IMG/VR virus record: IMGVR_UViG_3300032086_001878
Location: 1-53,749 of that record
Source: a virus
Taxonomy: Duplodnaviria; Caudoviricetes
DNA: 53,749 nucleotides
Direction: 5' to 3' (one strand)
Shown: in pieces, positions 458-48,986 of the stretch
How the letters are laid out: every line of letters begins with the position of its first letter
How positions within the stretch are numbered: position 1 is the stretch's first letter
Notes under the pieces: generated by a model
What the model was told of the DNA's origin: nothing
The model's input: the letters and a program-made list of their open reading frames with translations, nothing else
Database searches by the model: none
Made by a program: the position numbers and the translations under genes

Positions 458-483
458 CTAACGCCACTTAGTTATGCCATACT
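454..483 (+). promoter_or_regulatory. sigma70-like promoter containing the ACGCCACTTAGT motif
   Basis: TTGACT-N18-CATACT upstream of the 520 ORF. Confidence 0.55.
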
Positions 484-5397: not shown

Positions 5398-5436
5398 GTG
5401 AGGCTAGGGTTTCCGTAATGTTATTGAGGCAGTTTC

Positions 5437-5631
5437 ATGCAGGAAGACCCCTACCAGACAGGTTATCAAGATTTCTTCGAAGGAAACCTAACCTGTAAAT
5501 ATCGATCCCGAAGCTTCTATGCAAAAGAGTGGCTTCGGGGTTTCAACGCAGCATTCAACTATAACAGGCAAGCAAATGTACAAAGAGTTCCAGAAAAAAG
5601 ACTACCAAGAGTCAGATGGTGCAGCCCGTGA
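5437..5631 (+). CDS. Rmf/CrpP-fold-like small protein
   Basis: GY....G....C.Y......W..GF spacing resembles ribosome modulation factor; GAGG RBS. Confidence 0.5.
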   Translation: MQEDPYQTGYQDFFEGNLTCKYRSRSFYAKEWLRGFNAAFNYNRQANVQRVPEKRLPRVRWCSP

Positions 5632-5998
5632 AGCAGCTAAAAGCTTTTGGCGTTCACTGGGGTATGTTTGTAAGGACAATCCTGACGAGTTCGGGGTTGA
5701 CCTAATAGTTGAAGGACGTAACAGGCGTTTCTACTGTGAAGTAGAGCGTAAGAAGGTTTGGCATGGTGTTTCGTTTAAGTACGACACCATCCACCTTCCT
5801 GTTCGTAAGGCTAAGTTCCTTAACAAACCCACACAGTTCATGGTGTTCAACAACAGTTTGACCCATGCCGCCATCTTTGGACGCAAGATTGTTAAGGAAA
5901 GCCCAACTGCAGAAGTACCTAACTACAAGATTGCTTTCGGTGAAAAGTTCTACGATGTTCCAGTAGCCAAAGCTCACTTTATTAAGACACTTAACTAA
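5576..5998 (+). CDS. Putative PD-(D/E)xK endonuclease
   Basis: FGVDLIV..FYCEVERK; ATG at 5576 preferred over the track start. Confidence 0.55.
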   Translation: MYKEFQKKDYQESDGAAREAAKSFWRSLGYVCKDNPDEFGVDLIVEGRNRRFYCEVERKKVWHGVSFKYDTIHLPVRKAKFLNKPTQFMVFNNSLTHAAIFGRKIVKESPTAEVPNYKIAFGEKFYDVPVAKAHFIKTLN

Positions 5999-6012
5999 TT
6001 TATTTTTAGGTA

Positions 6013-6041
6013 TTGACTAAGTGGCGTTTTGATTCTACTAT
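6013..6041 (+). promoter_or_regulatory. sigma70 promoter of sRNA-1
   Basis: TTGACT-N17-TACTAT; overlaps ACTAAGTGGCGT motif and a GATTC. Confidence 0.7.
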
Positions 6042-6047
6042 TAGAGT

Positions 6048-6178
6048 TATCAAAGGAATGTTTCTTTCTTTCTGTCCTTTGTGTTTCTGTTTTGGGAAGT
6101 TACGGTGATTGGTCGCACTGGCTTCGTTGGATATGGGTAAACCCTCGTAGGCACTTAAACTTACGGGGGTTTATTTTT
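6048..6178 (+). ncRNA. Candidate sRNA-1 (three hairpins, one with an AUUGGUC loop)
   Basis: Own promoter; stem CAAAGGA/TCCTTTG; GGTG/CACT stem around ATTGGTCG; 14-bp terminator stem plus T-tract. Confidence 0.6.
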
Positions 6179-6189
6179 AGAGATAAAAA

Positions 6190-6264
6190 ATGTGGATTGA
6201 TTTAGTAATAATTGTTGGGGCCGTGATAATACTGTACACGGTCTGGAAGGATACAAACGACTGA
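6190..6264 (+). CDS. 24-aa hydrophobic peptide MWIDLVIIVGAVIILYTVWKDTND
   Basis: Manually translated; single TM-like segment; weak RBS. Confidence 0.45.
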   Translation: MWIDLVIIVGAVIILYTVWKDTND

Positions 6265-6282
6265 CAAAAAGCCCCGTAGCTA

Positions 6283-6312
6283 TTGACCACAGGGCTTTAG
6301 ATCGTATATAAT
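6283..6312 (+). promoter_or_regulatory. sigma70 promoter of sRNA-2
   Basis: TTGACC-N18-TATAAT. Confidence 0.65.
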
Positions 6313-6318
6313 ATACTT

Positions 6319-6386
6319 GAAGTTGGCGGTTTGGTCACTGCCTTTTTCAGTTTAGTAACCCTAGGCTTAATCGCCTAGGGTTTTTA
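6319..6386 (+). ncRNA. Candidate trans-antisense sRNA-2
   Basis: GGCGGT-[TTGGTC]-ACTGCC hairpin, then terminator AACCCTAGG/CCTAGGGTT plus T-tract; complementary to early-gene leaders. Confidence 0.7.
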
Positions 6387-6390
6387 CTTT

Positions 6391-6567
6391 TCAGGTAACG
6401 ATTATATCTTCACCATCATCATAACTTGAGCCATCCTTGAACGGTATTGCAGTAAAAGTGTCGAGAGTGCATACGATCAAATATTGCTGATCTGCTTCTT
6501 TACTTTTTTGCGCTGCCTCAAGCAATGCATTGCCAAATTCATTGGCTTTTTGTGCAGTTAATAGCAT
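6391..6567 (-). CDS. 58-aa hypothetical protein (paralog of 46259-46438)
   Basis: MLLTAQKANEFGNALLEAAQKSKEADQQYLIV...; strong AAAGGAG RBS; not in the ORF track. Confidence 0.8.
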   Translation of the reverse strand: MLLTAQKANEFGNALLEAAQKSKEADQQYLIVCTLDTFTAIPFKDGSSYDDGEDIIVT

Positions 6568-6738
6568 TAACTACTCCTTTATTATATGTTACTACAACAG
6601 GCGTTATTAGAGGGAACTACCCTCTGCCTAATGTAATTCTGACGTAGGAAGTACTCAAAGGTCAACAGATAAATTTGCGTAATTTTTTGAAAACTTTGTT
6701 GACTCGAAAAAAGTCAATAAAATCAATGCTGCCAAAAG

Positions 6739-6747
6739 TTATCCACA
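6739..6747 (+). promoter_or_regulatory. DnaA box
   Basis: Perfect TTATCCACA in an intergenic region. Confidence 0.4.
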
Positions 6748-6791
6748 TCTATATGTTGATATTTACCAGGTCTAAAATCAATATATAGTAT
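6746..6791. promoter_or_regulatory. Tandem NrdR-box-like pair
   Basis: Cores CTATATGTTG (6749) and CAATATATAG (6779), 30 bp apart. Confidence 0.35.
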
Positions 6792-6876
6792 GCGATACTA
6801 TGGGATGTATAGCATAAAAATAAAAAAAAACTCCCGAATCATTTGACCCAAGAGCTTTTATTCTATTATGAATAGT

Positions 6877-6939
6877 TAAAGGGATTAACTACCCCTTTGT
6901 TATATGTTACGCCCCCTAGCTTCGGCTTGGGGGTTTTTT
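6877..6939 (+). ncRNA. Candidate antisense sRNA-3
   Basis: TTGACC at 6843; AAAGGG-[ATTAACTAC]-CCCTTT hairpin; TTCG terminator plus T6; 25/27 match to 6566-6592. Confidence 0.7.
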
Positions 6940-9900
6940 ATTGGTAGCCTATTAAGTTTTGCATTTGCTGATCTAGGTTGTTTTTTGCATTCTCAGCTTG
7001 CGCCAAATAATCTGCTAGAGCCATCATAAAATCTTGCTCTCCACCTTCGCTTTCATCATCATACAACTCAGATCTTACGAGCCAAGCATAGAAGAGTTCC
7101 TGTTGATTTTGCGACATAGCAACGTCACCGTCAGGAACAACCTGCCTCGCTACTTTTACAAACTCTTGTGGCTTTGATAGCAATTGTTCAGCTAACCGTG
7201 CAGACTCTGCCCCGTCCAGTTTCTCGCCTAAGAAACCAACGGCCCCTGATCGCACCCTTGCACCAATACGGCTCAAAGCACCGAAGGTCAAAGTAACCAA
7301 TCTGTTTACTGCGGCAATAGATGCGGCTTTGTCTGCGGTTATGGAATTACCTGCACCAGAGGTAGCTTTCCTTGTTCCCACCTGAACGCCACTTAGCCTT
7401 AATAAGGTTTCCAACCCTGCTACATTTTCAGGATTGTTTTTGAATATTAAATTAGCCTTATCTAAATAATCCGTAAAATTTTCTAGTTCCTGCGTAATCT
7501 TGGCTTCGCTAACGCCACGTTGGTTTGGCATTTCTTTTGATAGAATTAAGAACTTATCTTTAAAAAACTTACTAAATGCCGCCTCAACACCTTTTTGTGC
7601 AAGTTCTCTTTCCACAGGATCACCGATTGCGTCTATCTTTGAAAGTAATTCAGGAAGATCACCTGATAACTGCCCATCGACAACACCCATAGCCTGTTTG
7701 TCATTAAAGTATTTATTAAGAACTTCAGTTGTATTCGGGTTTACTTTTCCTTCAGCATTTTGAAAGAACCTGCCTAGTGCGCCCTCGTATGCTTGTTGCT
7801 TTGCTTCCTCAAGTTTTAAAGTTGCCCCGTCTAGCCTTAGTTGCAATTCAGGGGTTATTTTCTCTAACCTTTGGATTTGTCGTAGGAAGGAGCGAACCTG
7901 ATCTGCAGCCTCTTTGGTGGCAGGGTTTCTATCTAGTAAGCTTGCACGGCTCTCAAGAGCTTGCCTGACTGCAGTAAAATCAACTTCATCTAATGCCCTA
8001 CCTGACTGTGAAGAAATGTTACTTACAGCGTCTGCAATAACGTAATCCACTACGTCCTCAACAGATTGACCACCCTCACTACGCAGAAGTACATTTAGAA
8101 TACCTTCGCCCTGCGCTCTGTTTACATCCAACAAACCTGACTCAACACTTTGTCGGGTTAAATCCCTTGCACCTGCTTGGTTTAATCTTCCTGCGCTACT
8201 GTTAGCAAAGTTATCTACGTTTTGAAGAATACCACCATCACGCCAATACTTAGAATACTGATTTCTGTAGTAATCCATAGCGTCTTGTGCAGCCGCCAGT
8301 TTATTAACCTGCCCTGTTTCATCTAAGTACAGAATAGCGTCATCATCTATTAATCTTTTAAGACCTGCTAAATTACTTATTGCTGTAGTTGCAGGAAGTG
8401 ATCCATCACGCTCAAGTTGGTTTAAGGTATCAGCTAAGTTAGGACGTATTTTTGTGTATAGATCCTCGAAGGTTACTTTATTACTTAAAAACTTTATGGC
8501 TTCATCACGATCCATTTGAGAGACTACAGCTAGTAGTTCACCTAACTGAGCATTTCCAGGTTTCTTAGGATTACCTGCATCTAAAAATTCTTTATTAAGA
8601 GTTTGTAATTGATCATACAGACGTTCACCAAACTGAACTCCATCATCATCCGCTATATTTAAACGCCCACCTTTAATCTTGTTGAAAAGATCATTTTTCT
8701 TTTGGTTCATTTGCCTACTGGCACTTACAAGTTTATCAAGTATTGCATCTGCACTATCAGCTTTGTTGATCGCTATGGAAACGCCATCTACTTCGTTTAA
8801 TTGTTCTAGTTTAGAACCAAAGAACGGATCATTTTGTATCTGACTTGTAATTCGATTTTTGAAATCAGTAATTGCATTTTCTGCTTTGGCTACATCATCT
8901 GCGGCACTCCTTATAGGTGCATTGGCAGCATCCCGTAGTGCATCGCCTGTCTGATCTACAGCGGATTGACCGCCTCTTACATCAAACATTTCGTCAGTAG
9001 TTTGAGCTAGTACCCTAGCAGGTTCTCCCTGCTTTGTAGCAAGTTGCCCAGTGTTTAGCTTATTGCCTAGCGCACCCTGTTCTATCACTTGGGAAGAGGT
9101 AATAATTCTTTTTGCGGTTTCGGTGTCATTGTTTCTGAGGGCATACTGAACTGCAGCTAACGTACTTAGACCTACCTTAACCTTATCATCATCAATCATA
9201 GTAATGATTTCATCATTATCTTCTATGAGCTTAACAAGATCACGCTTTATCTGAACAAGTTCATCTGCGGAAGCGGATGGATCTGCAGCTATTGATAGTC
9301 TGTTCAAAACATCATCAACAAATGCTTTCTCTCTACTAGCGGTACTGAGTACTCCTGTAAGTGTAGCTGCACCAGAAAAGAGGTATAAAACCTTGGCACT
9401 TTTTGCTACGCCTTTTGCACCTGTCTGAAGTGTTCGGGCAGCGAATAAAGCATCAGCTAAAACATTAGCCTTGTTCGCCAATATTTGTTGGTATTCAGGG
9501 GCATCGGGATCTACTGCAATCCCTTGGGTAAGGGGATAGATAGCAGCATTTTCTCCAATGAATGCGGTTGGAATATCAGGACTTAGAGCCGCTGCCATAC
9601 CTGCTTCAGTGGATAAAACCTTAACAGTGTTTGCTGCTTTAGGTGAATACTTTAATAAGTCAGTAGATATTTTTCTGGCATCATTTGTACCACCTAGCTT
9701 TGATGATACACGGGATATACCCTCTACAACTTTATCTCCACCTTTACCGCCTATTACACCACCAGTTAGTAACTGTGTTCCCTCAAAAAGTAGGGCATCA
9801 ACGATACCGCCATCACCTGCAGCTACATCAGGCAACACTTCATCTACAACCCCTACAGCATCCGTTGTTAAATCCACATTTGGTATCGTTCCAATAGACG

Positions 9901-30165: not shown

Positions 30166-30194
30166 ATTATAGCACAACTGCGCCACTTAGTAAA
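30166..30194 (-). promoter_or_regulatory. Capsid-gene promoter containing the ACTAAGTGGCG motif
   Basis: TTTACT-N17-TATAAT with TG extension. Confidence 0.7.
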
Positions 30195-40248: not shown

Positions 40249-40867
40249 CTTAGAGCCTTGAATTAGAACAGGAATCCCTGTGATATACACTTAACAACGC
40301 CACCTAACTAAGTCAAGCTTTTTAATCTACATCTAGTAACTTGACGCTTTCTAACCATAGGTTAAAACCGCAGCCGACTATGCCGTTGGTTTACAGGGTG
40401 AGAATCTAAAAAATAGGTAGGGAGTGTATACGGTAACGGTACGGGGTGGGGTGGCACATGCAACCCCTAAAAAAATAAAAAATATAGCTATTAAACCCCT
40501 GTTTTATATGGGTTTTTCTCACCTGATAACTATTAGTTATAAGTTAAAGCAAAATAAACGACTGAAAACAAAAAGAAAATTAAAAGGATTCAATTTTAGG
40601 ATTCAATTCTTTTAAATTAACAGCACTAATAAAATTAAAGCTTCGATAAAATAAAAGGAAAGAACCGCCACAAAATGAGTTGATAGTTTTTTAATAGCGT
40701 ATCGGGGCAAGCTTCGGTGTACGATTTACCACCCCTGTTAACTTTACCGCTGAGACTTAATAAGAAGCCCGTGTAATAGGGGAAAGCTTTCTTCAGGTGT
40801 TCTAATACTAGCGGCATTAATTAACGCCACTCAGTGAGCTTTAAAACAGCCCCTTTTAAGGTGGCAT

Positions 40868-40891
40868 AAAAAAAGCCCCGATTAAGGGGCT
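40868..40891 (-). terminator. Intrinsic terminator ending the early cluster
   Basis: AGCCCC-TTAATC-GGGGCT plus T-tract on -. Confidence 0.7.
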
Positions 40892-40919
40892 AATTCTTTT
40901 GAGTGATGCAGGGGTTTAG

Positions 40920-41087
40920 CTAGTCTATTTCTAAAGACTTTCTAACCACTGTGAATAGTTTGTCCTGCAATCGTTCAGTTATCTTGCAAAGCTTTAGTAT
41001 ATCTTTAGCCGTTTCTGTCCTTCCTTCTTGCGCTAAGTCATAAGCTAAATTCTGGCGCATATAATCAATAAAATCATTATCTGTCAT
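40920..41087 (-). CDS. 55-aa putative early protein
   Basis: MTDNDFIDYMRQNL..; carries the shared GAAGGAATGACCAA leader; not in the ORF track. Confidence 0.75.
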   Translation of the reverse strand: MTDNDFIDYMRQNLAYDLAQEGRTETAKDILKLCKITERLQDKLFTVVRKSLEID

Positions 41088-41144
41088 TTGGTCATTCCTT
41101 CTTTCAGTTTAAAAGGGGCAAGCTTTAACTTACCCCTGCTTTAA

Positions 41145-41396
41145 TTATTGCGGTGTATCGATTGCGCTTATCGATTGAGACTCGAAGTTACCATTAGCTT
41201 TGTAAATGGTGGCTAAAACCTGTTTAGCTGTTTTGAATTTGAAGATTAAATTAGTTTGTTTTTCTAATTCTTTCAGGGCTTCAGTCTTTGTTTTATGCTT
41301 CGTGTAGAATGCCATTTGATTCCACAATGGTGGCACGGAATAACAAAGCCATGAGCTTTTACGTTTAAAGATTTTAAATTGTTCCTGTTCTTTCAT
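41145..41396 (-). CDS. Hypothetical putative early protein
   Basis: 83 aa; shared leader. Confidence 0.75.
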   Translation of the reverse strand: MKEQEQFKIFKRKSSWLCYSVPPLWNQMAFYTKHKTKTEALKELEKQTNLIFKFKTAKQVLATIYKANGNFESQSISAIDTPQ

Positions 41397-41473
41397 TTGG
41401 TCACTTCCTTTTAACAGTTTCAGTTTGTTGCAATGTGCAACGGAATACCCCCGATAAACTCAGGGGTTAACCG

Positions 41474-41683
41474 TTAAACACTGTTTAACTTTGCAGCATG
41501 TAAAAGAACCCTTTCCCGTTCCGATTGATTAAGCCCTGCGATTACTGCAAGCACTTTGATTGCATTGCTTCGAACTTGCTCTTTAGAAAACTTTTGTTCA
41601 CGGGGCTTTCGGTTTGCTTGCCTATGTTCTTTCTTCAAGCCTAGCTTTTCGATAGTTTCGGGCTTTAGATCGTTAATATTCAT
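41474..41683 (-). CDS. Hypothetical putative early protein
   Basis: 69 aa, ATGA-coupled. Confidence 0.7.
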   Translation of the reverse strand: MNINDLKPETIEKLGLKKEHRQANRKPREQKFSKEQVRSNAIKVLAVIAGLNQSERERVLLHAAKLNSV

Positions 41684-41874
41684 TTTGCGCCCCTATCGTT
41701 AAAGTCGGTCAAAGCTTCGGTTAAAGTTGAATGATAAGAACCGTGATAAAATCCGTTATCGGTTTTATTATGAAGCCATGTAACAAACGGGGTGTATTCA
41801 TTATCGATTTTGCAAAGCACTATTTCTAGATAATCAAAGTGACCTGCTTTTCTATCAATTATAATTCTGTTCAT
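41680..41874 (-). CDS. Hypothetical putative early protein
   Basis: 64 aa, TAATG-coupled. Confidence 0.7.
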   Translation of the reverse strand: MNRIIIDRKAGHFDYLEIVLCKIDNEYTPFVTWLHNKTDNGFYHGSYHSTLTEALTDFNDRGAK

Positions 41875-42284
41875 TAAAACAACTCCGTGAAATTATATGC
41901 CCCGTCGCTATCGATATATACAAAAGCTTTTGCATTTATGTATTGACCACCACCCCAAGGGTCATTTTCACTTATGCAAGTATAAGTGGCGGTTTTATCG
42001 AATTGGTTTGCCCTGTTATAATGCCCTTTGTAAAAGCTATATTTTGCGTCTGGCTTTTTCCAGAATTGATCACCTTTTTTTAAAGATTTTAAAGCCACCT
42101 TTTTGAAGGTATCACCGTATTTATTAGCCACTAAATTATGCTTCTTTAAATAAGCTTCAAATTCTTTATCACGTTTAGCTTGTTCAACCTCTTCGCTTGA
42201 AGCTAATTCAATCTTCACGTCTTCAGATTCATCAACCATTTTTGTTAAAGCTTCGATTAAGTTAATTTGTAATTGGTCTTTCAT
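41874..42284 (-). CDS. Hypothetical putative early protein
   Basis: 136 aa; shared leader. Confidence 0.75.
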   Translation of the reverse strand: MKDQLQINLIEALTKMVDESEDVKIELASSEEVEQAKRDKEFEAYLKKHNLVANKYGDTFKKVALKSLKKGDQFWKKPDAKYSFYKGHYNRANQFDKTATYTCISENDPWGGGQYINAKAFVYIDSDGAYNFTELF

Positions 42285-42340
42285 TTGGTCATTCCTTTTT
42301 TCAGTTTCAATTCGGCATAGCTACCGCATGCCTTGCCCCA

Positions 42341-42368
42341 ATTATAATTGATTCGGTGTAATAGTAAA
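42341..42368 (-). promoter_or_regulatory. Putative early promoter
   Basis: TTTACT-N16-TATAAT with GAATC in the spacer. Confidence 0.6.
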
Positions 42369-42495
42369 GTGCTTTACTAGTGTAATTAGAAATACCCCGT
42401 AGAGCCAATATAAGCGCCACTGAGTGCCGAAACGGGTTTTAGGTATATTAGGTCATAAAAATGGCTTTCCCCTAAAAATCGGTTTTTAGCCATAT

Positions 42496-42529
42496 AAAAA
42501 AGCCCCTGAATTAAAGGGGCTTTCTTTTT
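42496..42529. terminator. Bidirectional intrinsic terminator
   Basis: AAAAAAGCCCCT-GAATTAA-AGGGGCTTTCTTTTT. Confidence 0.7.
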
Positions 42530-42546
42530 AGTTTTGTTTGTATCGA

Positions 42547-42885
42547 TTAGACGAATTTATATTCTTCTATATCAATCGGGGTTTGCCTGAAGAATGAATA
42601 GATAGCCTTTTCTATTTCTTCTTTGCTGTTACTTCGATCAATTCCCAATTCATTAATATGAACAGTAAACTTAAAATTAACACTCAAGTCACTTAAAAGA
42701 AAATCGACTTCAATTTCCTTCGCATTCATTTCTAAATTGTTAATAAGACTCAGGGCTTCGTCTTTGGTATCGAAAAGGTTCTCACCTTCCTCGTTTTCCA
42801 TACACTCCCCATATTCATCCACAACCTGAAATTTTGGTGGCGTGTAATCGTCATTTTCTTCTATTTCATATTCCATTAGAGTCAC
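42547..42885 (-). CDS. Acidic hypothetical protein
   Basis: 112 aa; shares V.DE.GE...NE.G...F.TK.EA with the upstream ORF (paralog-like). Confidence 0.7.
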   Translation of the reverse strand: MTLMEYEIEENDDYTPPKFQVVDEYGECMENEEGENLFDTKDEALSLINNLEMNAKEIEVDFLLSDLSVNFKFTVHINELGIDRSNSKEEIEKAIYSFFRQTPIDIEEYKFV

Positions 42886-43069
42886 CCCTTCCTAGAAAGT
42901 ATTCCCGATAATGCCGCCCTTGGTCTAAGGGGTTTTTCAAGTCTTTAATTACGCTTTCAGCTTCTTCTTTTGTTTCAAAAACGTTGCCTTGTTCATTTCC
43001 ATATGTTTCTCCGTTTTCGTCTTGCACTTCGTAATTAACCCACGGTATTTCTACTATTCTATATTTCAT
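42866..43069 (-). CDS. Hypothetical protein
   Basis: MKYRIVEIPW.. start at the ATGA overlap with the 43066 ORF. Confidence 0.65.
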   Translation of the reverse strand: MKYRIVEIPWVNYEVQDENGETYGNEQGNVFETKEEAESVIKDLKNPLDQGRHYREYFLGRGDSNGI

Positions 43070-43506
43070 TTTGAACCCCTTCCAAAATTTAGCATAGCCG
43101 CCAATGCAGGAACGGATTGACCCCATAAGTTTTGATTTTCACCGGTTACCCTTTTACTAACATTTATAACTAAAGCCCCGTTACGGTTCTTTTGAATTGC
43201 AACGGTATCACCTGCGGCAGCTTCTTTTTTTAAACCACTAATTGAGAAACGTTTATCTCCCCTTGTTTTGGTTTTATAAAAAGAAACTTTGCAGGGCTTT
43301 GAATTATCAAAACACCCGTCAATGGTTATCTTTTCCCCTGCTTTTAAATCGGTGTAATTAATGCCAATGCTTTCAGCTAATTCTATCACCGACTTATTGG
43401 CGTCAATAATGTGCTTGTTTAACATTGTATTGGTCAACTTAATGACTCCCGTTGTTGCGACTTTTCGCAAGTCTTCAAGAATTGATTCAACATTAAAATG
43501 TTTCAT
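43066..43506 (-). CDS. Hypothetical putative early protein
   Basis: 146 aa; shared leader. Confidence 0.75.
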   Translation of the reverse strand: MKHFNVESILEDLRKVATTGVIKLTNTMLNKHIIDANKSVIELAESIGINYTDLKAGEKITIDGCFDNSKPCKVSFYKTKTRGDKRFSISGLKKEAAAGDTVAIQKNRNGALVINVSKRVTGENQNLWGQSVPALAAMLNFGRGSK

Positions 43507-43838
43507 TTGGTCATTCCTTCTTTTTCAAGTTTAGTTTGATTTTGTGCAGCGTCTTCAAGTCGGTTCATTAGAACCGCCAAAGCGTAACCCATATCGGAAA
43601 AGCTCGCCTGTTCAGCGCATTGCCGCACGTTTTCCCAAGTATGCATTTTGTACACGGGTTGCCTTGTTTGTGGGGCTTGCGGTTCTATCGTTGTCGAAGA
43701 TCCACAAACTTTATTTTCGTTTAAGAAGTTTAAAAGGTTAGGTTTATCAGTCGGAACGTTAACCGCTGAAGCTTTTATTTTCTTTGCCGCAGCTTGTGTT
43801 CCAACCCATTGCCCCGAATTATTTACATAAAGTTTCAT
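43503..43838 (-). CDS. Hypothetical putative early protein
   Basis: 111 aa; shared leader. Confidence 0.75.
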   Translation of the reverse strand: MKLYVNNSGQWVGTQAAAKKIKASAVNVPTDKPNLLNFLNENKVCGSSTTIEPQAPQTRQPVYKMHTWENVRQCAEQASFSDMGYALAVLMNRLEDAAQNQTKLEKEGMTK

Positions 43839-43918
43839 TTGGTCACTTTCTTTTAGTTTAGGTTAAAATCGATAAAGCGAAAAAGAAGGTGGCAAAAATT
43901 GCCACCCCTTGTAATAAA

Positions 43919-44812
43919 TCAAGCCACCAATTCATGAGTCATATCCCATAGGCTTTGATTAATTCGTATGTTTTCGCTCAAGGCTGTAATGCCTTTTGCC
44001 TTGCGTTGAATCCCGTTCCAATTTTTAGCGTCTAAATGCTTATTAGTAATTGAAACGATATTTACACCGCCCTTTAAAATGCTTTCCTGAATGCGGTTAA
44101 AAGCTTTCCACGCATTGCGCCCCGTATCTTCATAGCGACTTGGACGGGCTAAATCGTTTATAGTTTCTTCAGTGTAATATAAACCCGTTTCAGGTTCTTT
44201 ATGGTCAAAGCTAAATGACTTTAAACAATCAGGGGCTTCTTTCCAACGCAAGCTTGCAGCCTGTTCAGCTAAATCTAGAATCTGCTTCACGTTCAATTCA
44301 GTTTTAGAAAGCTTTTCAACTTGTTCTGAAACTTGCGGCAACCCGTCGAGAGTCTGATTAAGAAGCTTTTCAAAGTTATTAGCCGTTGTATGGCTATGCC
44401 GCATTATGTTTTTAAAGCCTTCCCCTGCAATCATTCCGTTATCACATACAAATCGAAAGATTCCTGCAAAAAGCTTTAAAGAGCTTCGGCCATCGTGAGA
44501 GTTGTATAATAAAACTTCGGTTCTAGACTCTAGATCCGTTTTAGCTAATTCGTCTTTATGGGAAAAAGCTATTAAGTGCTTATTATACTTTTCACGCCCG
44601 TCTTTTATATTGGGCTGTTGTTTAGCCCTAGTCGGTCTATAGCCGTAATCGCTTAAAACATTCATGGCTTCAATTGTATTAACAAGCCCATAACGGTTAG
44701 ACGTTTCAGGGCTTCGAATATCAGTTAGAACCGCAGGACAATTTTCTATTACTTCACTTATTGGAAGTGCTTTTGCTTTTGCGTCAAAGCTATGCATTAA
44801 ATCATATGGCAT
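43919..44812 (-). CDS. DUF932 family protein
   Basis: LLYNSHDGRSS..AGIFRFVCDNG..W.AFNRIQE..N..LW. Confidence 0.85.
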   Translation of the reverse strand: MPYDLMHSFDAKAKALPISEVIENCPAVLTDIRSPETSNRYGLVNTIEAMNVLSDYGYRPTRAKQQPNIKDGREKYNKHLIAFSHKDELAKTDLESRTEVLLYNSHDGRSSLKLFAGIFRFVCDNGMIAGEGFKNIMRHSHTTANNFEKLLNQTLDGLPQVSEQVEKLSKTELNVKQILDLAEQAASLRWKEAPDCLKSFSFDHKEPETGLYYTEETINDLARPSRYEDTGRNAWKAFNRIQESILKGGVNIVSITNKHLDAKNWNGIQRKAKGITALSENIRINQSLWDMTHELVA

Positions 44813-44873
44813 TGGTCATTTTCCTTTTCTGTTTAGCCAAAATAAAAGGGCAAGGTGTTTACCCTTGCCCCTT

Positions 44874-44901
44874 ACAATACTTGATTCGCTTCATTAGTAA
44901 A
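44874..44901 (-). promoter_or_regulatory. Putative early promoter
   Basis: TTTACT-N16-TATTGT with GAATC in the spacer; same design as 42341. Confidence 0.55.
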
Positions 44902-45214: not shown

Positions 45215-45981
45215 TATGCCGCCACCCTATCGAATACAAAGCTTTTACCTGAATCCATTAAATCAAACGGGCGGCATTCTGAAACTTGGCAGGGTTCAAC
45301 AATAAACAAGCCTTTTTGCTTTTTGTTTTTATTTCCCTTTAATTTTAAACCGCAAATTTTATTAAATGAATTAGCGTTTATTAAGTCGCTCTTATCCCCG
45401 TCTATAATTTCACGGCCTAGGAAATACTTTCCAACTGGTACTGAACCCCGAAATACTACAGCAATCGGAAAGCCTGTTTTCAGTGCTTCCTTAACTTGAT
45501 TCTGATATTGTGGAGTCCCTGAGTAGCTAAAAACTTTTTTATAATTCTTTAAGCCAGTGTTCAGGGTTTTTACTAGTTTTGTATAATCGTAAAAATAAGC
45601 TTGTGGAAATTGTTGCGGTATTCCTTCTTTAACCCAATTAATATCACTAATCGTATTTAATCGGAATGCAGCCTTGAAACCCTGCTTTTCAGTTTTTCTA
45701 ATAAAGGCTTCTATTTCTTTTCTAAGCTTTTCGAGAAACTTTTCACGCTCTTTTAAATACATTTCCGTTTTAAATTTACGGGCTAAATTCACAGACTCGA
45801 ACATTTCCGAAAATCCCGAATCCTTTAAGCATAACCGCATGCAATCGGCAGCTTTAGCCCCTGCACAAATGACGTTGTTAGGATATAGACTCAAGCTTGC
45901 AATCTTAAATTCTGTTCCGTTTTGGCTTTTGGCAATTTTTGAATTTGTGCCGCCAGTGTTCAATAGTTTAATATTCTTCAT
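45214..45981 (-). CDS. GP88-like protein
   Basis: C......C...CL..SG, FRLNTISDI.W, FYDYTK, IDGDKSDL. Confidence 0.65.
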   Translation of the reverse strand: MKNIKLLNTGGTNSKIAKSQNGTEFKIASLSLYPNNVICAGAKAADCMRLCLKDSGFSEMFESVNLARKFKTEMYLKEREKFLEKLRKEIEAFIRKTEKQGFKAAFRLNTISDINWVKEGIPQQFPQAYFYDYTKLVKTLNTGLKNYKKVFSYSGTPQYQNQVKEALKTGFPIAVVFRGSVPVGKYFLGREIIDGDKSDLINANSFNKICGLKLKGNKNKKQKGLFIVEPCQVSECRPFDLMDSGKSFVFDRVAA

Positions 45982-46203
45982 TTCGAAGTTTCCTTTTCAG
46001 TTTAGTTTTTGCGATTCGTTTTTGTTAATGGCGGTCAATCCATCCGAATCCCGATTAGTAAAAGCCCTTTTGATTCCTGAGTCAAACGCTTTATTAATTG
46101 GCTTTTTTATTTACTTTTTTGATTTTATTAAATTTTTTTTTCCGCACCTTATTATTGCATATTTCGTATAATTATGTTCTATATATATGGGTTATAATAT
46201 AAT

Positions 46204-46238
46204 TTGACGTGCGAGTAGTTTTAGAACAATATGGGAAC
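46204..46238 (+). promoter_or_regulatory. Promoter overlapped by an alphaproteobacterial LexA box
   Basis: TTGACG-N17-CAATAT; GAAC-AATATGG-GAAC at 46224-46238. Confidence 0.65.
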
Positions 46239-46258: not shown

Positions 46259-46438
46259 ATGATTCTTTCGCCTGACGAGGCAAAGGAACTCGGTGAGGCT
46301 TTAGTGGACGCCTCTGAAACAGTTCTACGTGCCAAAAAAGACCAGAACGTAATATTAGTTAAAGACACAGCAGTATCAGTGAATGCTGATCTTTTGATCG
46401 ATGATTGGGAACTAGTAGCCACAGTAAGCGATAGGTAA
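46259..46438 (+). CDS. 59-aa hypothetical protein (paralog of 6391-6567), putatively SOS-induced
   Basis: MILSPDEAKELGEALVDASETV...; GGGGT RBS; own terminator; not in the ORF track. Confidence 0.8.
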   Translation: MILSPDEAKELGEALVDASETVLRAKKDQNVILVKDTAVSVNADLLIDDWELVATVSDR

Positions 46439-46474
46439 GTATATAATATAGTTGACGTGCGAGTATTTTGATTT

Positions 46475-46529: not shown

Positions 46530-46604
46530 AAAAAGCCCCCTGTCGGGAGGATGACAGAGGGCTAGTAGGGAGGGCTAGGTAGAAATACCTGTGGAGCATT
46601 TCTA
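46530..46604 (-). ncRNA. Candidate sRNA-4 with anti-SD (CCUCCC) motifs
   Basis: Promoter TTGCTA-N17-TAAAAT (46639-46611); 9-bp hairpin; 11-bp terminator stem with ATCCTCCC loop plus T-tract. Confidence 0.6.
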
Positions 46605-46654: not shown

Positions 46655-46684
46655 TTGACTTTAATTACGCCACTTAGCTATTCT
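46655..46684 (+). promoter_or_regulatory. Integrase promoter containing the ACGCCACTTAG motif
   Basis: TTGACT-N18-TATTCT. Confidence 0.55.
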
Positions 46685-46711: not shown

Positions 46712-47791
46712 ATGACGAATAGAGTTAAGTACTTCAGAGAAATAGTTTTAAGCACGGGGGAACGAAAATACTGTTTTGAACCCCCAAAGTATGTGCAGGA
46801 TGCTCTTGGATGCAGAAGGGAACCCTATGACAGTAAGCTCTTGGCTATACAAAGATGTCAGGAGATCGATGATGCTTACAGGCAGTTCAAACGAGGTGAT
46901 ATAGCTGTTCAAAGAGTAAACTCTGCCACTGTATTGGGTATAATTAACTACTATAAGAGTACCCACGAATATGTTAAACTAGCAGACAATAGTAAAAAGA
47001 CCTATGAACAGTTACTTTCAGGTCTGATTAACATCCAATTACGATCTAAAAGTGGCCCGTTTGTAGAAATGTTGGCTGCAAACGTGACTGAGGATCATGC
47101 AGATAAGCTACATGCATTCCTTCGAGACAACATTTCAGACCACAGGGCGAGACACACGGTTAAGTTCCTGAAGCGTGTCTGGAATGTCTGTGAAATGAAG
47201 AAAAAGATTAGAGGTAATCCTTGGAGACATCTGGAACTGGAGTCAGATCCTGTAAGTGATGTCGTATGGAAGGAAAGCCAAGTCGATAGGTTCATCAATA
47301 CCGCAGATGATATGGGGTATCCTTCGATGGGAACACTGGCAATGCTTTGCTACGACCTATGCCAACGACCTGGAGATATGCGGCAACTTACATGGGAACA
47401 GTTTGATGGAGAGAGCTTCGATTTCTATCAGGAAAAGACAGGGGTGAAGATTGAGATCGATGCAAGCCCCCGTTTAGTTAAGCGACTAGTACCGCTGCAC
47501 AATAGATACGGACAAGATGAAACCATTGTTCAATATGAGAAAACGAACAAGGGCTACGACAATCGAAAGTATAACGAGATCGCTGCTAAAATACGGAAGC
47601 AGTGTATGCTCCCTGATAAACTTAAAATGAAATTTTTACGTCACTCAGGGGCTACCGTTCTTGGCGAAAACGGGGCTACGGAAGATCAGATCTCCGCAGT
47701 TACAGGCCACAAATCCAGACAGATGCTCAACATCTACGTCAAAAAGACCAAGCGTTTGGCATCTTCTGCACAACAACTGAGGTTCAAATGA
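46712..47791 (+). CDS. int: Tyrosine recombinase / integrase
   Basis: CQRPGD (R), QEKTG (K), FLRHS, TGH, IY catalytic residues. Confidence 0.92.
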   Translation: MTNRVKYFREIVLSTGERKYCFEPPKYVQDALGCRREPYDSKLLAIQRCQEIDDAYRQFKRGDIAVQRVNSATVLGIINYYKSTHEYVKLADNSKKTYEQLLSGLINIQLRSKSGPFVEMLAANVTEDHADKLHAFLRDNISDHRARHTVKFLKRVWNVCEMKKKIRGNPWRHLELESDPVSDVVWKESQVDRFINTADDMGYPSMGTLAMLCYDLCQRPGDMRQLTWEQFDGESFDFYQEKTGVKIEIDASPRLVKRLVPLHNRYGQDETIVQYEKTNKGYDNRKYNEIAAKIRKQCMLPDKLKMKFLRHSGATVLGENGATEDQISAVTGHKSRQMLNIYVKKTKRLASSAQQLRFK

Positions 47792-47922
47792 AGGACATCA
47801 CAGAGGCACGAAGGGCGTTTGAAGAAGAATTAAAACGGCTAATTAAAAAGCCACCAAGCGTCCTGACTGAACGTCTTATAGACTTAATACAGGCAATACA
47901 AACTGAACTTAAAAAGGAATGA
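47788..47922 (+). CDS. 44-aa hypothetical protein
   Basis: ATGA-coupled to int; MKDITEARRAFEEEL.. Confidence 0.6.
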   Translation: MKDITEARRAFEEELKRLIKKPPSVLTERLIDLIQAIQTELKKE

Positions 47923-47925
47923 CCA

Positions 47926-48093
47926 ATGGATATAGCCCAGTTACCTATCAAGCTGTTAGCACATTTAGAATTTATCGGGGTGTTACCTCGCAGTGTGGAT
48001 GAAGATGGCGTTGATAATATCGAAACCCCTGAGATCGGTAAGAGCTTCTTTAGAAAGCCTGACTTCGATGCTCAAGGCGAACCAGAGTTCTAG
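47926..48093 (+). CDS. 55-aa hypothetical protein
   Basis: MDIAQLPIKL..; carries the shared AAAGGAATGACCA leader. Confidence 0.7.
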   Translation: MDIAQLPIKLLAHLEFIGVLPRSVDEDGVDNIETPEIGKSFFRKPDFDAQGEPEF

Positions 48094-48793: not shown

Positions 48794-48835
48794 TGGTTGC
48801 GGGGAGAGGATTTGAACCTCTGACCTTCAGGTTAT
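48794..48835 (-). mobile_element. attP core: 3' half of tRNA-Met(CAT)
   Basis: Reverse complement ATAACCTGAAGGTCAGAGGTTCAAATCCTCTCCCCGCAACCA; flanked by IHF-consensus sites at 48772 and 48852. Confidence 0.88.
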
Positions 48836-48986
48836 AGCCAGAAACCAATAAAATCAATGACTTACAGGCAGGGTAATTAGTTAAGCCCATAACTTAACAC
48901 TTTTGTAGTGGGCTTGACTTAACTGGCGCTTTATGTAGGCGTAACTAATGGCACTACGGTTCCTAAACAATTTTGGGAGCTAATCG

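What the first reader, a model, noticed from the sequence alone, without database searches (positions are those of the whole stretch)
6013..6939. Candidate RNA-based lysis/lysogeny (or early shut-off) circuit in a temperate phage with no recognisable CI repressor
Seen: this 0.93-kb gap between converging operons holds three + strand promoter-hairpin-terminator units, a 58-aa minus-strand ORF and a 24-aa peptide ORF. Two units are complementary to early-gene start regions 35-40 kb away; the third is complementary to the RBS of the 58-aa ORF, whose paralog near int has a LexA box. The phage has int and attP, but I recognise no HTH/S24 repressor. Known: phages P4 (CI RNA) and P1/P7 (C4 RNA) use small antisense RNAs for immunity. 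Inference: this is an immunity/decision locus built from several trans-acting sRNAs. I am not aware of it being described for HMO-2011-type phages.
Basis: partly seen in the sequence, partly recalled or inferred. Interest (0 to 1): 0.92.

Follow-up and report, generated by a model that had tools for sequence, protein, structure and literature searches.

The report
Phage small RNA targeting early-gene starts
A group of marine roseobacter phages carries a conserved small RNA gene whose sequence changes in step with the ribosome-landing sites of the phage's own early genes, so it probably silences them by base-pairing.

Summary
The gap (5999-6937) is real, and one of its three units is a well-supported small RNA gene. 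Unit 2 (about 6319-6386, + strand) has a conserved promoter (6283-6312), a hairpin with the hexaloop TTGGTC and a terminator. It occurs in 39 of 40 related sequences examined; the fortieth contig ends too early. The hairpin stem covaries (6 of 6 pairs changed on both sides). The loop and tail are complementary to a shared translation-initiation region (TIR) of 6-8 early genes 35-41 kb away. Across seven lineages RNA and TIRs change together: the true pairing beats all other 5,039 permutations. It matches no Rfam family, and I found no paper describing it.

Units 1 and 3, the 58-aa gene and the 24-aa ORF occur only in the closest relatives. Unit 3 does mirror the 58-aa gene's start region. Unit 1 looks like a decayed paralog, and its complementarity to early genes is at chance level.

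The converging minus-strand transcript appears to end only after crossing the sRNA gene, so it would carry a perfect anti-sRNA.

No HTH/S24 repressor was found in 50 proteins scanned. All five relatives tested have an integrase. Whether the RNA gives immunity or times early shut-off is open; no expression data were obtained.

The parts
6271..6295 (-). Minus-strand intrinsic terminator hairpin, followed by a U-run read from 6270-6266. Its loop holds the -35 box of the sRNA promoter.
   Evidence: Fold energy -23.1 kcal/mol on the minus strand against -11.9 on the plus strand. The same asymmetry and a U-run on the minus strand are seen in three other lineages.
6283..6312 (+). sRNA promoter: TTGACC, 18 nt, TATAAT.
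   Evidence: 11 of 12 consensus positions. TTGACC was required by the search that located the unit, so its constancy is not an independent result. The -10-like TAnAnn box and the 17-18 nt spacing are kept while the spacer sequence varies.
6319..6386 (+). Predicted ~68-nt sRNA (unit 2): stem 6325-6330/6337-6342, hexaloop TTGGTC 6331-6336, single-stranded tail 6343-6356, terminator 6357-6382 plus U-run.
   Evidence: Fold z-score -5.3. Covariation. Covariance-model hit of 76.1 bits, one strong hit per related genome. Start and end are inferred, not mapped.
41085..41117 (-). Target TIR of the 55-aa early gene (AAACTGAAAGAAGGAATGACCAAATG).
41394..41424 (-). Target TIR of the 83-aa early gene.
   Evidence: best duplex, -32.3 kcal/mol
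42282..42314 (-). Target TIR of the 136-aa early gene.
43504..43536 (-). Target TIR of the 146-aa early gene.
43836..43866 (-). Target TIR of the 111-aa early gene.
44810..44841 (-). Target TIR of the 297-aa DUF932 early gene (GACCAATG variant).
47896..47928 (+). The same TIR type on the 55-aa gene downstream of int.
45979..46012 (-). Leader of the first early gene (GP88 family). It matches the sRNA tail (CTAAACTGAAAAGG) but lacks GACCAA, so it is a possible partial target.
   Evidence: Sequence read. The homologous leaders are among the top hits in G002 and G001. Pfam GP88.
6013..6178 (+). Unit 1: promoter-like site 6013-6041, a 48-nt insert specific to the window (6047-6094), a hairpin with loop ATTGGTCG, and a terminator. 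Probably a diverged paralog of the sRNA.
   Evidence: Covariance model 21.8 bits, aligned GAAGUU..UUGGUC... Present only in L007-L010, where the loop has changed to TTGGTA or TTGGTT. Complementarity to gene starts is at chance.
6190..6264 (+). 24-aa hydrophobic peptide ORF, the last gene of the + arm.
   Evidence: Open in all 9 close relatives examined; 8 end ..YTVWKD.
6391..6567 (-). 58-aa accessory gene. Its promoter-like site is 6665->6636 and its TIR is 6568-6592. If it ends at the terminator 6295-6271, its mRNA crosses the sRNA gene.
   Evidence: Third-codon-position bias. Promoter-like site. Absent from L012 and from all more distant relatives.
6762..6939 (+). Unit 3: promoter-like site 6762-6789, a start-codon-less copy of the 58-aa gene's TIR in antisense sense (6874-6910), and terminator 6913-6933.
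   Evidence: D6; duplex -41.7, 0 of 60 shuffles. Both copies carry TATATG in the window and L003, and both carry TAAGTG in L005-L011. Covariance model 28-29 bits.
6826..6859 (-). Minus-strand terminator of the structural (late) operon in this window.
   Evidence: 15 pairs followed by a T-run

Best explanation
Unit 2 is a gene for a ~68-nt trans-acting antisense RNA. It is probably transcribed by the host RNA polymerase from its own promoter. It folds into a 6-bp hairpin that presents the hexaloop UUGGUC, followed by a single-stranded tail and an intrinsic terminator. The loop pairs with GACCAA, the spacer between the Shine-Dalgarno sequence and the AUG. The 3' arm and the tail pair with the Shine-Dalgarno sequence and the 10-15 nt upstream of it. 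This start region is shared by 6-8 early cistrons, so one RNA can occlude the ribosome-binding sites of the whole early gene set. That would shut off their translation and probably destabilise or prematurely terminate their mRNAs. The converging minus-strand transcript is the late operon in most relatives and the 58-aa gene's mRNA in this window. It ends at a terminator that lies beyond the sRNA gene and overlaps the sRNA's -35 box. It would therefore carry a perfect complement of the sRNA and run across its promoter, which could switch the sRNA off. Shown here: conservation, RNA-type covariation, strand, and co-evolving complementarity. Inferred: transcription, repression, and the biological role (prophage immunity/superinfection immunity or timed early shut-off; I give the two about equal weight).
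For: 1. Presence. The unit follows the 159-aa gene in 38 of 40 sources by an automatic search. One further case (L073) was found by eye. L008's contig ends before the expected place.
2. Promoter and loop. The hexaloop TTGGTC is invariant in 39 of 39. TTGACC is also present in all, but the search required it, so that is not independent evidence. The spacer, stem and tail vary.
3. Stem covariation. 95% of cells are paired against 58.5% in shuffles and at most 59% in slid controls; 6 of 6 pairs show changes on both sides. On the covariance-model alignment of 26 sequences (6 of them not in the seed), 94.6% are paired and 12 of 17 pairs changed on both sides; 0 of 500 shuffles reach this.
4. Strand. 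G-U pairs exist only on the + strand.
5. Targets. In genome-wide scans of both strands with the reverse complement of the 36-nt core, the best non-self match is an early-gene start in the window, G002, G003, CRP-235 and CRP-212. It ranks 2nd in CRP-3, about 10th in G004 and 10th in the incomplete G001.
6. Co-evolution. In seven lineages, for 7 of 7 TIR sets the phage's own sRNA binds best, and for 5 of 7 sRNAs the phage's own TIR set is best. The true assignment is the single best of 5,040 permutations. Examples: G002 TTGGTCGGTTCC against GGAACCGACCAA; G003 GTTTAGCTAGTAAG against CTTACTAGCTAAAC; CRP-738 CCTTGTTCGTTGGTT against AACCAACGAACAAGG.
7. Co-occurrence. HMO-2011 and CRP-1 have neither the sRNA nor the TIR family. 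CRP-207 and HTVC033P have no room at the junction. The covariance model gives nothing better than E 0.18 in those four.
8. The hairpin that holds the -35 box is a minus-strand terminator in 4 of 4 lineages folded.
Against: There is no direct evidence of transcription. The four RNA libraries found hold no contig over the sRNA, and contigs of such libraries would rarely hold a 68-nt RNA anyway. The promoter and terminator are consensus matches. The duplexes contain mismatches; in the window the best TIR differs from a perfect complement by 1-3 positions around the Shine-Dalgarno sequence. Duplex energies ignore the RNA's own hairpin, which partly sequesters the anti-Shine-Dalgarno arm. Because the gap copy and the TIRs are similar sequences on the same DNA strand, concerted evolution of a repeat family could produce part of the co-variation without any RNA-RNA contact. 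The TIR sets used in the matrix were defined by a regular expression and include a few non-family starts. The 'early' timing of the target genes is inferred from their position and size only. In two sRNA rows a foreign TIR set scored slightly better than the own one (CRP-235 and CRP-212).
Confidence: 0.68

Rival explanations
1. Immunity reading. The sRNA is made constitutively in the lysogen and is the main maintenance and superinfection-immunity factor. It keeps all early cistrons untranslated and polar. The lineage-specific tails act as immunity specificities.
For: All 5 relatives tested carry the integrase. CRP-3 integrates into a tRNA-Met gene (PMC6918029, passages read). No HTH/S24 protein was found in 50 of 50 proteins. 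The unit is insulated by terminators on both sides and has its own near-consensus promoter. Three phages of one host strain (CRP-3, CRP-212, CRP-235; hosts) carry different tails with matching TIRs. That is the pattern known for the P1/P7 c4 heteroimmunity RNAs (review PMC12197685, passages read).
Against: No lysogen data exist. A translation block alone is not known to maintain lysogeny. A conserved 59-aa gene beside int, flanked by two copies of a 13-mer, could be a protein regulator. No prophage copy was found in the bacterial genome collection; that was a single-protein query, so a weak search. The specificity is only partial: the loop is identical in all lineages and the off-diagonal energies are not far weaker.
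Confidence: 0.3
2. Timer reading. The sRNA accumulates during lytic infection and shuts off early-gene translation at the early-to-middle transition, as an RNA counterpart of phage T4 RegA. Late convergent transcription then removes it.
For: It has the same complementarity and the same multi-target design. The sRNA gene sits at the distal end of the replication arm. It is fully overlapped by the 3' end of the late transcript, which ends at a terminator on the sRNA's -35 box.
Against: A near-consensus constitutive promoter would fire from the first minute and fight early expression. The element was found only in an integrase-bearing subgroup. It is absent from 4 of 4 other HMO-2011-type isolates checked, including CRP-207 and HTVC033P.
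Confidence: 0.3
3. Minus-strand reading. The functional molecule is the 3' untranslated end of the late (or 58-aa) mRNA, which carries a start-codon-less TIR mimic in a hairpin. It would act as a decoy for ribosomes or for a TIR-binding protein. The + strand unit would be only a pair of terminators.
For: The minus-strand terminator lies beyond the element in 4 of 4 lineages, so minus transcripts should contain it.
Against: G-U and U-G pairs in both helices would be A-C mismatches on the minus strand. A -10-like box is kept at a fixed 17-18 nt from the TTGACC box while the spacer sequence varies. The distal terminator is + strand-specific in its wobble pairs and U-run.
Confidence: 0.1
4. DNA-level or neutral reading. 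The shared words are a double-stranded DNA site for a phage regulator, or the gap copy is a decaying duplicate of a TIR kept similar by gene conversion, without RNA function.
For: All copies are direct repeats on one DNA strand (D3-D5). Early-gene cassettes with repeated leaders invite recombination. The gap is a hot spot for insertions.
Against: The family copies sit at a fixed distance from the AUG, which points to translation rather than to an operator. In all seven lineages the gap copy alone lacks a start codon and alone has a 5' arm that pairs with its anti-Shine-Dalgarno arm, with compensatory changes. It is flanked by a conserved promoter and terminator. Decay would not preserve this in 39 of 39 sequences whose flanking protein is only 58-92% identical.
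Confidence: 0.08

Closest known systems
c4 antisense RNA of phages P1 and P7 (and the related CI RNA of satellite phage P4; the P4 details are recalled, not read here)
   Same: A phage-encoded small RNA that acts in trans on phage mRNA. Its complementary bases are presented in loops. It blocks a ribosome-binding site, and RNA/target co-variation sets immunity specificity between related phages (review PMC12197685, passages read).
   Different: No match to any Rfam family, even at E up to 10. The fold is different: one hexaloop hairpin plus a tail. It has its own promoter, rather than being processed from a longer transcript (the processing of c4 is recalled). It has 6-8 targets through a repeated start region, not one operon. 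c4 controls an antirepressor beside a protein repressor, whereas no repressor is recognised here.
Cis-antisense phage RNAs: P22 sas, BTP1 STnc6030 (and lambda OOP and P22 sar, recalled)
   Same: Phage RNAs that regulate phage genes by pairing, some of them giving superinfection exclusion (PMC12197685). The sRNA here is also cis-antisense to the 3' end of the converging transcript.
   Different: The proposed main targets lie 35-41 kb away and pair imperfectly in trans.
Phage T4 RegA translational repressor (recalled)
   Same: One factor represses many early mRNAs at their start regions.
   Different: RegA is a protein. Here the factor is an RNA, and the shared target sequence is long and co-evolves with it.
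Bacterial trans-acting sRNAs with C/U-rich loops that cover Shine-Dalgarno sequences (general class, recalled)
   Same: A seed region upstream of an intrinsic terminator with a U-tail, and multi-target repression at ribosome-binding sites.
   Different: Here the multiple targets arise from one repeated phage leader, not from convergent short seeds. Dependence on Hfq is unknown.

Membership tests
Rfam C4 antisense RNA family (P1/P7 c4, P4 CI) | Match to the family covariance model | tested here: not met
   No Rfam 15 family reached its gathering score in the window. No C4 hit appeared among 21 weak matches at E up to 10 in 5950-6990.
Rfam C4 antisense RNA family (P1/P7 c4, P4 CI) | Loop-exposed bases complementary to the ribosome-binding region of phage mRNA, co-varying between related phages | tested here: met
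   This shows that it works like c4, not that it is a member.
Rfam C4 antisense RNA family (P1/P7 c4, P4 CI) | Matured by processing from a longer transcript (recalled feature) | not testable with these tools
   The sequence shows a dedicated promoter. Read-through from the + arm is also possible, because the upstream hairpin is weak on the + strand.
Independent bacterial-type sRNA gene | Own promoter and intrinsic terminator conserved while the flanks diverge | tested here: met
Independent bacterial-type sRNA gene | Conserved secondary structure with compensatory changes | tested here: met
Independent bacterial-type sRNA gene | A discrete transcript is detected | tested here: inconclusive
   Only contigs of four metatranscriptome runs could be laid, and none covers 6319-6386. 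Such data cannot show absence.
Lambda-type CI/Cro protein switch | HTH or HTH-plus-S24 repressor encoded near int and the early promoters | tested here: not met
   0 of 50 proteins gave such a Pfam family at E up to 0.05. The 59-aa protein beside int models as one helix plus three strands (pLDDT 87.9), with no fold match at E below 0.7. Pfam is not exhaustive for small proteins.
SOS (LexA)-controlled prophage module | LexA operator in a key promoter (alphaproteobacterial GAAC-N7-GAAC pattern, recalled) | tested here: inconclusive
   One site at 46224-46238, overlapping the -10 region of the 59-aa gene, against 1.46 expected per window. It is kept in G002 and G001 and absent in G003, G004 and CRP-235.

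The most novel reading that the evidence does not exclude
An abundant group of temperate marine podoviruses maintains lysogeny and superinfection immunity without a protein repressor. A single constitutive small RNA blocks a start region repeated on every early cistron. Its lineage-specific tail-and-TIR pairs act as immunity types. The converging late transcript, which carries the perfect anti-sRNA and runs over the sRNA promoter, forms the other half of a bistable RNA switch.
Probability: 0.22. Interest if true: 0.92.

Novelty: new variant of a known kind. Interest (0 to 1): 0.8.

Why it matters
HMO-2011-type phages are described as dominant and broadly distributed in the ocean (PMC9038755, abstract and passages). 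For the integrase-bearing members no regulator of lysogeny has been named: the words repressor, promoter and sRNA do not occur in PMC9038755, and repressor does not occur in PMC6918029. A conserved RNA that co-evolves with the start regions of the early genes gives a concrete, testable candidate. Four cultured phages (CRP-3, -212, -235, -738) carry it, and three of them share one host strain, so cross-immunity and compensatory-mutation tests are feasible. Regulation through one repeated leader would also be a compact design principle of general interest for RNA regulation and for engineering phage gene timing.

Tried and rejected
Rfam. No family reached its gathering score. Only weak chance-level matches appeared at E up to 10 in the gap and in the int region.

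RNA expression. The look-up of sequencing runs listed four metatranscriptome runs with 5-6% of the sampled words. Laid on 5400-7400, they gave one 169-nt contig over 6410-6577 (the 58-aa gene; runs X1 and X2 are one sample) and contigs over 5400-5618 (X3, X4). Nothing covered the sRNA. These are low-depth contigs from RNA libraries that may hold DNA. I draw no conclusion about transcription or its absence.

Unit 1 as an anti-early-gene RNA: rejected on the energy test.

Prophage search. The 159-aa protein against one genome per prokaryote species gave one spurious 19-residue hit.

Wider relatives. A search through the C-terminus of the 1265-aa protein returned only contigs already held. tblastn of that protein against phage records gave only CRP-235.

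The 58/59-aa proteins. Pfam and PHROGs gave nothing. The protein atlas gave nothing usable. The word-index search gave only close relatives without names. Foldseek's best hits were Hfq chains at E 0.7-3 and TM 0.26-0.30, which is no support for an Hfq-like fold.

PHROGs on eight target proteins: two families of unknown function, otherwise nothing.

MAFFT misaligned the hairpin of the G003-like, CRP-212 and CRP-3 sequences. I therefore used loop-anchored 30-nt pieces and a covariance-model alignment.

Supplementary files of the papers, for example the CRP-3 att core in a supplement of PMC6918029, were not available. They could settle where attP lies.
Full report
What the window is. The window is a complete 53,749-bp virus record with a 133-nt terminal direct repeat (D1). 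[quoted passage not shown] One arm runs rightward on the + strand. It starts with a 59-aa gene and the integrase (46712-47791; PF00589), wraps through the replication genes and ends with the ribonucleotide reductase and a 159-aa gene at 5998. The other arm runs leftward on the minus strand from about 46080. It passes through a set of small early-type genes (46000-37000) and the structural genes, and ends with a 1265-aa gene at 6938. The finding's gap (5999-6937) is where the two arms converge.

The observation. Promoter-like and terminator-like sites exist for the three + strand units. The 58-aa minus-strand ORF evolves as a protein-coding gene: differences from relatives fall mostly on third codon positions (10/8/22 and 3/3/14). 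The 24-aa ORF stays open in all nine close relatives examined, and eight of them end ..YTVWKD. Repeat analysis shows that 6330-6353 is a + strand copy of the antisense of the start regions of the minus-strand genes that begin at 41087, 41396, 42284, 43506, 43838 and 44812 (D3-D5; 3 matches against 0.01 expected). These genes share the leader AAACTGAAA.AAGGAATGACCAAATG. A + strand gene at 47926 has it too. Region 6874-6910 is an 86% copy of the antisense of the 58-aa gene's own start region, with ATG changed to ATC (D6; read).

Test against chance. I compared each unit with all 72 predicted gene starts. For unit 2 the six best partners are exactly the six early genes; the top-5 mean is -30.0 kcal/mol against -22.3 +/- 1.2 for dinucleotide shuffles, and 0 of 60 shuffles are as good. 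Unit 3's best partner is the 58-aa gene (-41.7; 0 of 60). Unit 1 is at chance: 4 of 60 shuffles are as good, 38 of 60 without its window-specific 48-nt insert, and none of its best partners is an early gene.

Relatives. The 159-aa protein retrieved 36 IMG/VR loci at 58-92% identity, and tblastn found three isolates. An automatic search found the unit-2 architecture downstream of that gene in 38 of 40 sources. L073 (CRP-3) failed only my T-run criterion and carries the unit. L008's contig stops before the expected position. In most relatives the whole junction is about 130 nt and holds only this unit. Units 1 and 3, the 24-aa ORF and the 58-aa gene occur only among the ten closest loci. The closest relative without the 58-aa cassette, L012, has the sRNA followed directly by the large gene. 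Across all sequences the hexaloop TTGGTC and a -10-like box at 17-18 nt from TTGACC are kept. TTGACC itself was required by the search, so its constancy is not independent evidence. The promoter spacer, the stem, the tail and the terminator stem vary. CRP-738 has a variant with a 9-bp stem and a 12-nt loop that contains TTGGTC.

It is an RNA, and it is read from the + strand. On 20 distinct loop-anchored sequences the 6-bp stem is paired in 95% of cells, against 58.5% in shuffles and at most 59% with slid partners. All six pairs show changes on both sides, for example GGCGGT/ACTGCC, GGAAGT/GCTTCC, GAACC/GGTTC, ACGGGG/CCCCGT, GAATGGT/ACCATTC and GAAAAGT/ACTTTTC. I built a covariance model from 14 sequences. 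It then found one strong hit per genome, including six sequences not in the seed (CRP-212 47.1 bits, the G003/G004 type 42-45 bits, CRP-3 33.7 bits) and CRP-738 weakly (23.5 bits). On that alignment 94.6% of cells pair and 12 of 17 pairs change on both sides; 0 of 500 shuffles reach this. That alignment is fitted to the model, so it leans towards the structure. G-U and U-G pairs in both helices are valid only on the + strand. The window's RNA folds with z = -5.3.

Co-evolution with the targets. I slid the reverse complement of each phage's 36-nt sRNA core over both strands of its own genome. The best non-self match is an early-gene start in the window, G002, G003, CRP-235 and CRP-212. It ranks 2nd in CRP-3, about 10th in G004 and 10th in the incomplete G001. 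The complementary words differ by lineage:
- window: ..TTTTTCAGTTTAG against CTAAACTGAAAAA
- CRP-235: CTTTCAAGTTTAG against AAACTTGAAAAGG
- CRP-3: CAAGTTAGATAG against CTATCTAACTTGGAG
- CRP-212: CTAGTTAGAATGG against TCTAACTAGAAAG
- G002: TTGGTCGGTTCC against GGAACCGACCAA
- G003/G004: GTTTAGCTAGTAAG against CTTACTAGCTAAAC
- CRP-738: CCTTGTTCGTTGGTT against AACCAACGAACAAGG
.
I defined the TIR sets independently of the tail: GACCA within 9 nt of the ATG of an ORF of at least 50 aa. With these sets the phage's own sRNA is the best binder for 7 of 7 TIR sets. The phage's own TIR set is best for 5 of 7 sRNAs. The two exceptions, CRP-235 and CRP-212, have sets diluted by non-family starts. The true assignment is the single best of 5,040 permutations (eight-genome matrix). 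HMO-2011 and CRP-1 lack both the sRNA and the TIR family. CRP-207 has a 29-nt junction, and in HTVC033P the genes overlap. The model finds nothing better than E 0.18 in those four; only 12-14 kb around the junction was searched in the last two.

Why not a decaying repeat. In every lineage the gap copy alone lacks a start codon. It alone carries a 5' arm complementary to its anti-Shine-Dalgarno arm. It alone is bracketed by a promoter and a + strand terminator. Gene conversion with the true TIRs would erase these differences rather than keep them.

Convergent architecture. The hairpin whose loop holds the -35 box is much more stable on the minus strand: -23.1 against -11.9, -16.4 against -11.3, -23.0 against -12.4 and -20.3 against -13.6 kcal/mol. 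It is followed by a U-run on that strand in all four lineages folded. The sRNA's own terminator has wobble pairs and a U-run that fit only the + strand. Minus-strand transcripts therefore probably read through the sRNA gene and stop on its -35 box. Such a transcript would contain a perfect complement of the sRNA and would cross its promoter. In most relatives that transcript is the late structural operon. In this window the late operon has its own terminator (6859->6826), and the crossing transcript would be the 58-aa gene's mRNA (promoter-like site 6665->6636). This part is anatomy plus inference.

The accessory units. Unit 3 has the same design as unit 2: a start-codon-less TIR copy placed directly 5' of a + strand terminator. 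Its two copies changed together in relatives (TATATG in both, or TAAGTG in both). The model scores it at 28-29 bits, largely through the terminator. An RNA against the 58-aa gene is plausible but rests on one co-variation event among close relatives. Unit 1 aligns to the model as GAAGUU-stem-UUGGUC-stem (21.8 bits), so it looks like a diverged duplicate. In L007-L010 its loop has mutated, and its tail matches no early leader.

The lysogeny context. All five relatives tested encode the integrase. CRP-3 has been shown experimentally to integrate into a tRNA-Met gene (PMC6918029, passages read). Integrases occur in subgroups I and III of the group (PMC9038755, passages read). Pfam found no HTH, Cro/CI or S24 family in 50 of 50 proteins. 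The 59-aa gene upstream of int is conserved in the window, G001, G002, G003 and CRP-235. It is flanked by two copies of TGACGTGCGAGTA (the same arrangement is seen in G003 and CRP-235). Its model is one helix plus three strands, with no significant fold match. It remains a candidate protein regulator. The LexA-type pattern in its promoter is not above chance by count and is conserved in only part of the group.

What is known. I found no paper linking HMO-2011-type phages or roseophages to small RNAs. 'HMO-2011' plus 'small RNA' returned 0 papers. 'Roseophage' plus 'sRNA' returned 1 unrelated paper. Two broader searches turned up nothing that fits. A 2025 review of phage sRNAs (PMC12197685, passages read) lists c4 of P1/P7, sas, STnc6030 and others, but nothing of this design. 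The closest known system is the c4/CI class of immunity RNAs. This element works like them but is not a detectable member of that class.

Verdict.

Noticed in passing
window 46535-46562 (between the 59-aa gene and int); G002, G003, G004 and CRP-235 at the same place: A hairpin whose loop reads GGGAGGAT on the + strand (ATCCTCCC, an anti-Shine-Dalgarno-like word, on the minus strand). The loop is kept in five lineages (TTCCTCCC in CRP-235) with five different stems: CTGTC/GACAG, TAGGC/GCCTA, GTGAACA/TGTTCAC, GTGAGT/ACTCAC, GTAGAC/GTCTAC. In the window it is followed by a U-run on the minus strand. Read by eye; no formal covariation test was run. It may be a second structured RNA, or part of attP.
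   Followed up: partly
window 46205-46217 and 46453-46465: The 13-mer TGACGTGCGAGTA occurs twice as a direct repeat flanking the 59-aa gene (2 exact copies; 0.44 matches with up to 2 mismatches expected). The same arrangement is seen in G003 and CRP-235. It is a candidate operator pair.
   Followed up: partly
window 462-472, 6016-6026, 7387-7397, 30181-30191, 40825-40835, 42415-42425, 46668-46678: The motif ACTNAGTGGCG occurs 7 times against 0.73 expected, six of them on the minus strand. At 6013-6041 and 30201->30164 it fills the end of the -35 box and the spacer of two similar promoter-like sites (I1). It may be a phage-specific promoter class or a regulator site.
   Followed up: no
window about 48795-48845, minus strand: A stretch that resembles the 3' part of a tRNA (T-arm GGTTCAAATCC, acceptor strand, CCA), lying in the 436-nt gap before the primase gene. 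The Rfam tRNA hit is partial and weak (14.5 bits, E 2.3). It is a candidate attP core, in line with CRP-3 integrating into a tRNA gene.
   Followed up: partly
window 6739-6747: TTATCCACA, which matches the DnaA-box consensus as I recall it. It lies in a block (6708-6870) that is more conserved among close relatives than its surroundings. A single 9-mer is not significant on its own.
   Followed up: no
L007/L009, between the unit-1 terminator and the 24-aa ORF: These relatives carry an extra insertion of about 650 nt that is absent from the window and from L010. Read by eye it contains an ORF with an HNH-like H-x-D-H motif. The junction is a hot spot for insertions.
   Followed up: no
window 46259-46438 (+) and 6391-6567 (-): The 59-aa and 58-aa proteins form a small family (M-L-x5-A-x-E-x-G-x-A-L) with no Pfam, PHROG or fold match. 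The AlphaFold model has pLDDT 87.9: one long helix plus three strands.
   Followed up: partly
window 40850-44900, minus strand: Several early cistrons are each preceded by a GC-rich hairpin with a T-run and then the shared leader, for example upstream of 41087 and 44812 (read). The early region looks like a string of self-contained cassettes.
   Followed up: no
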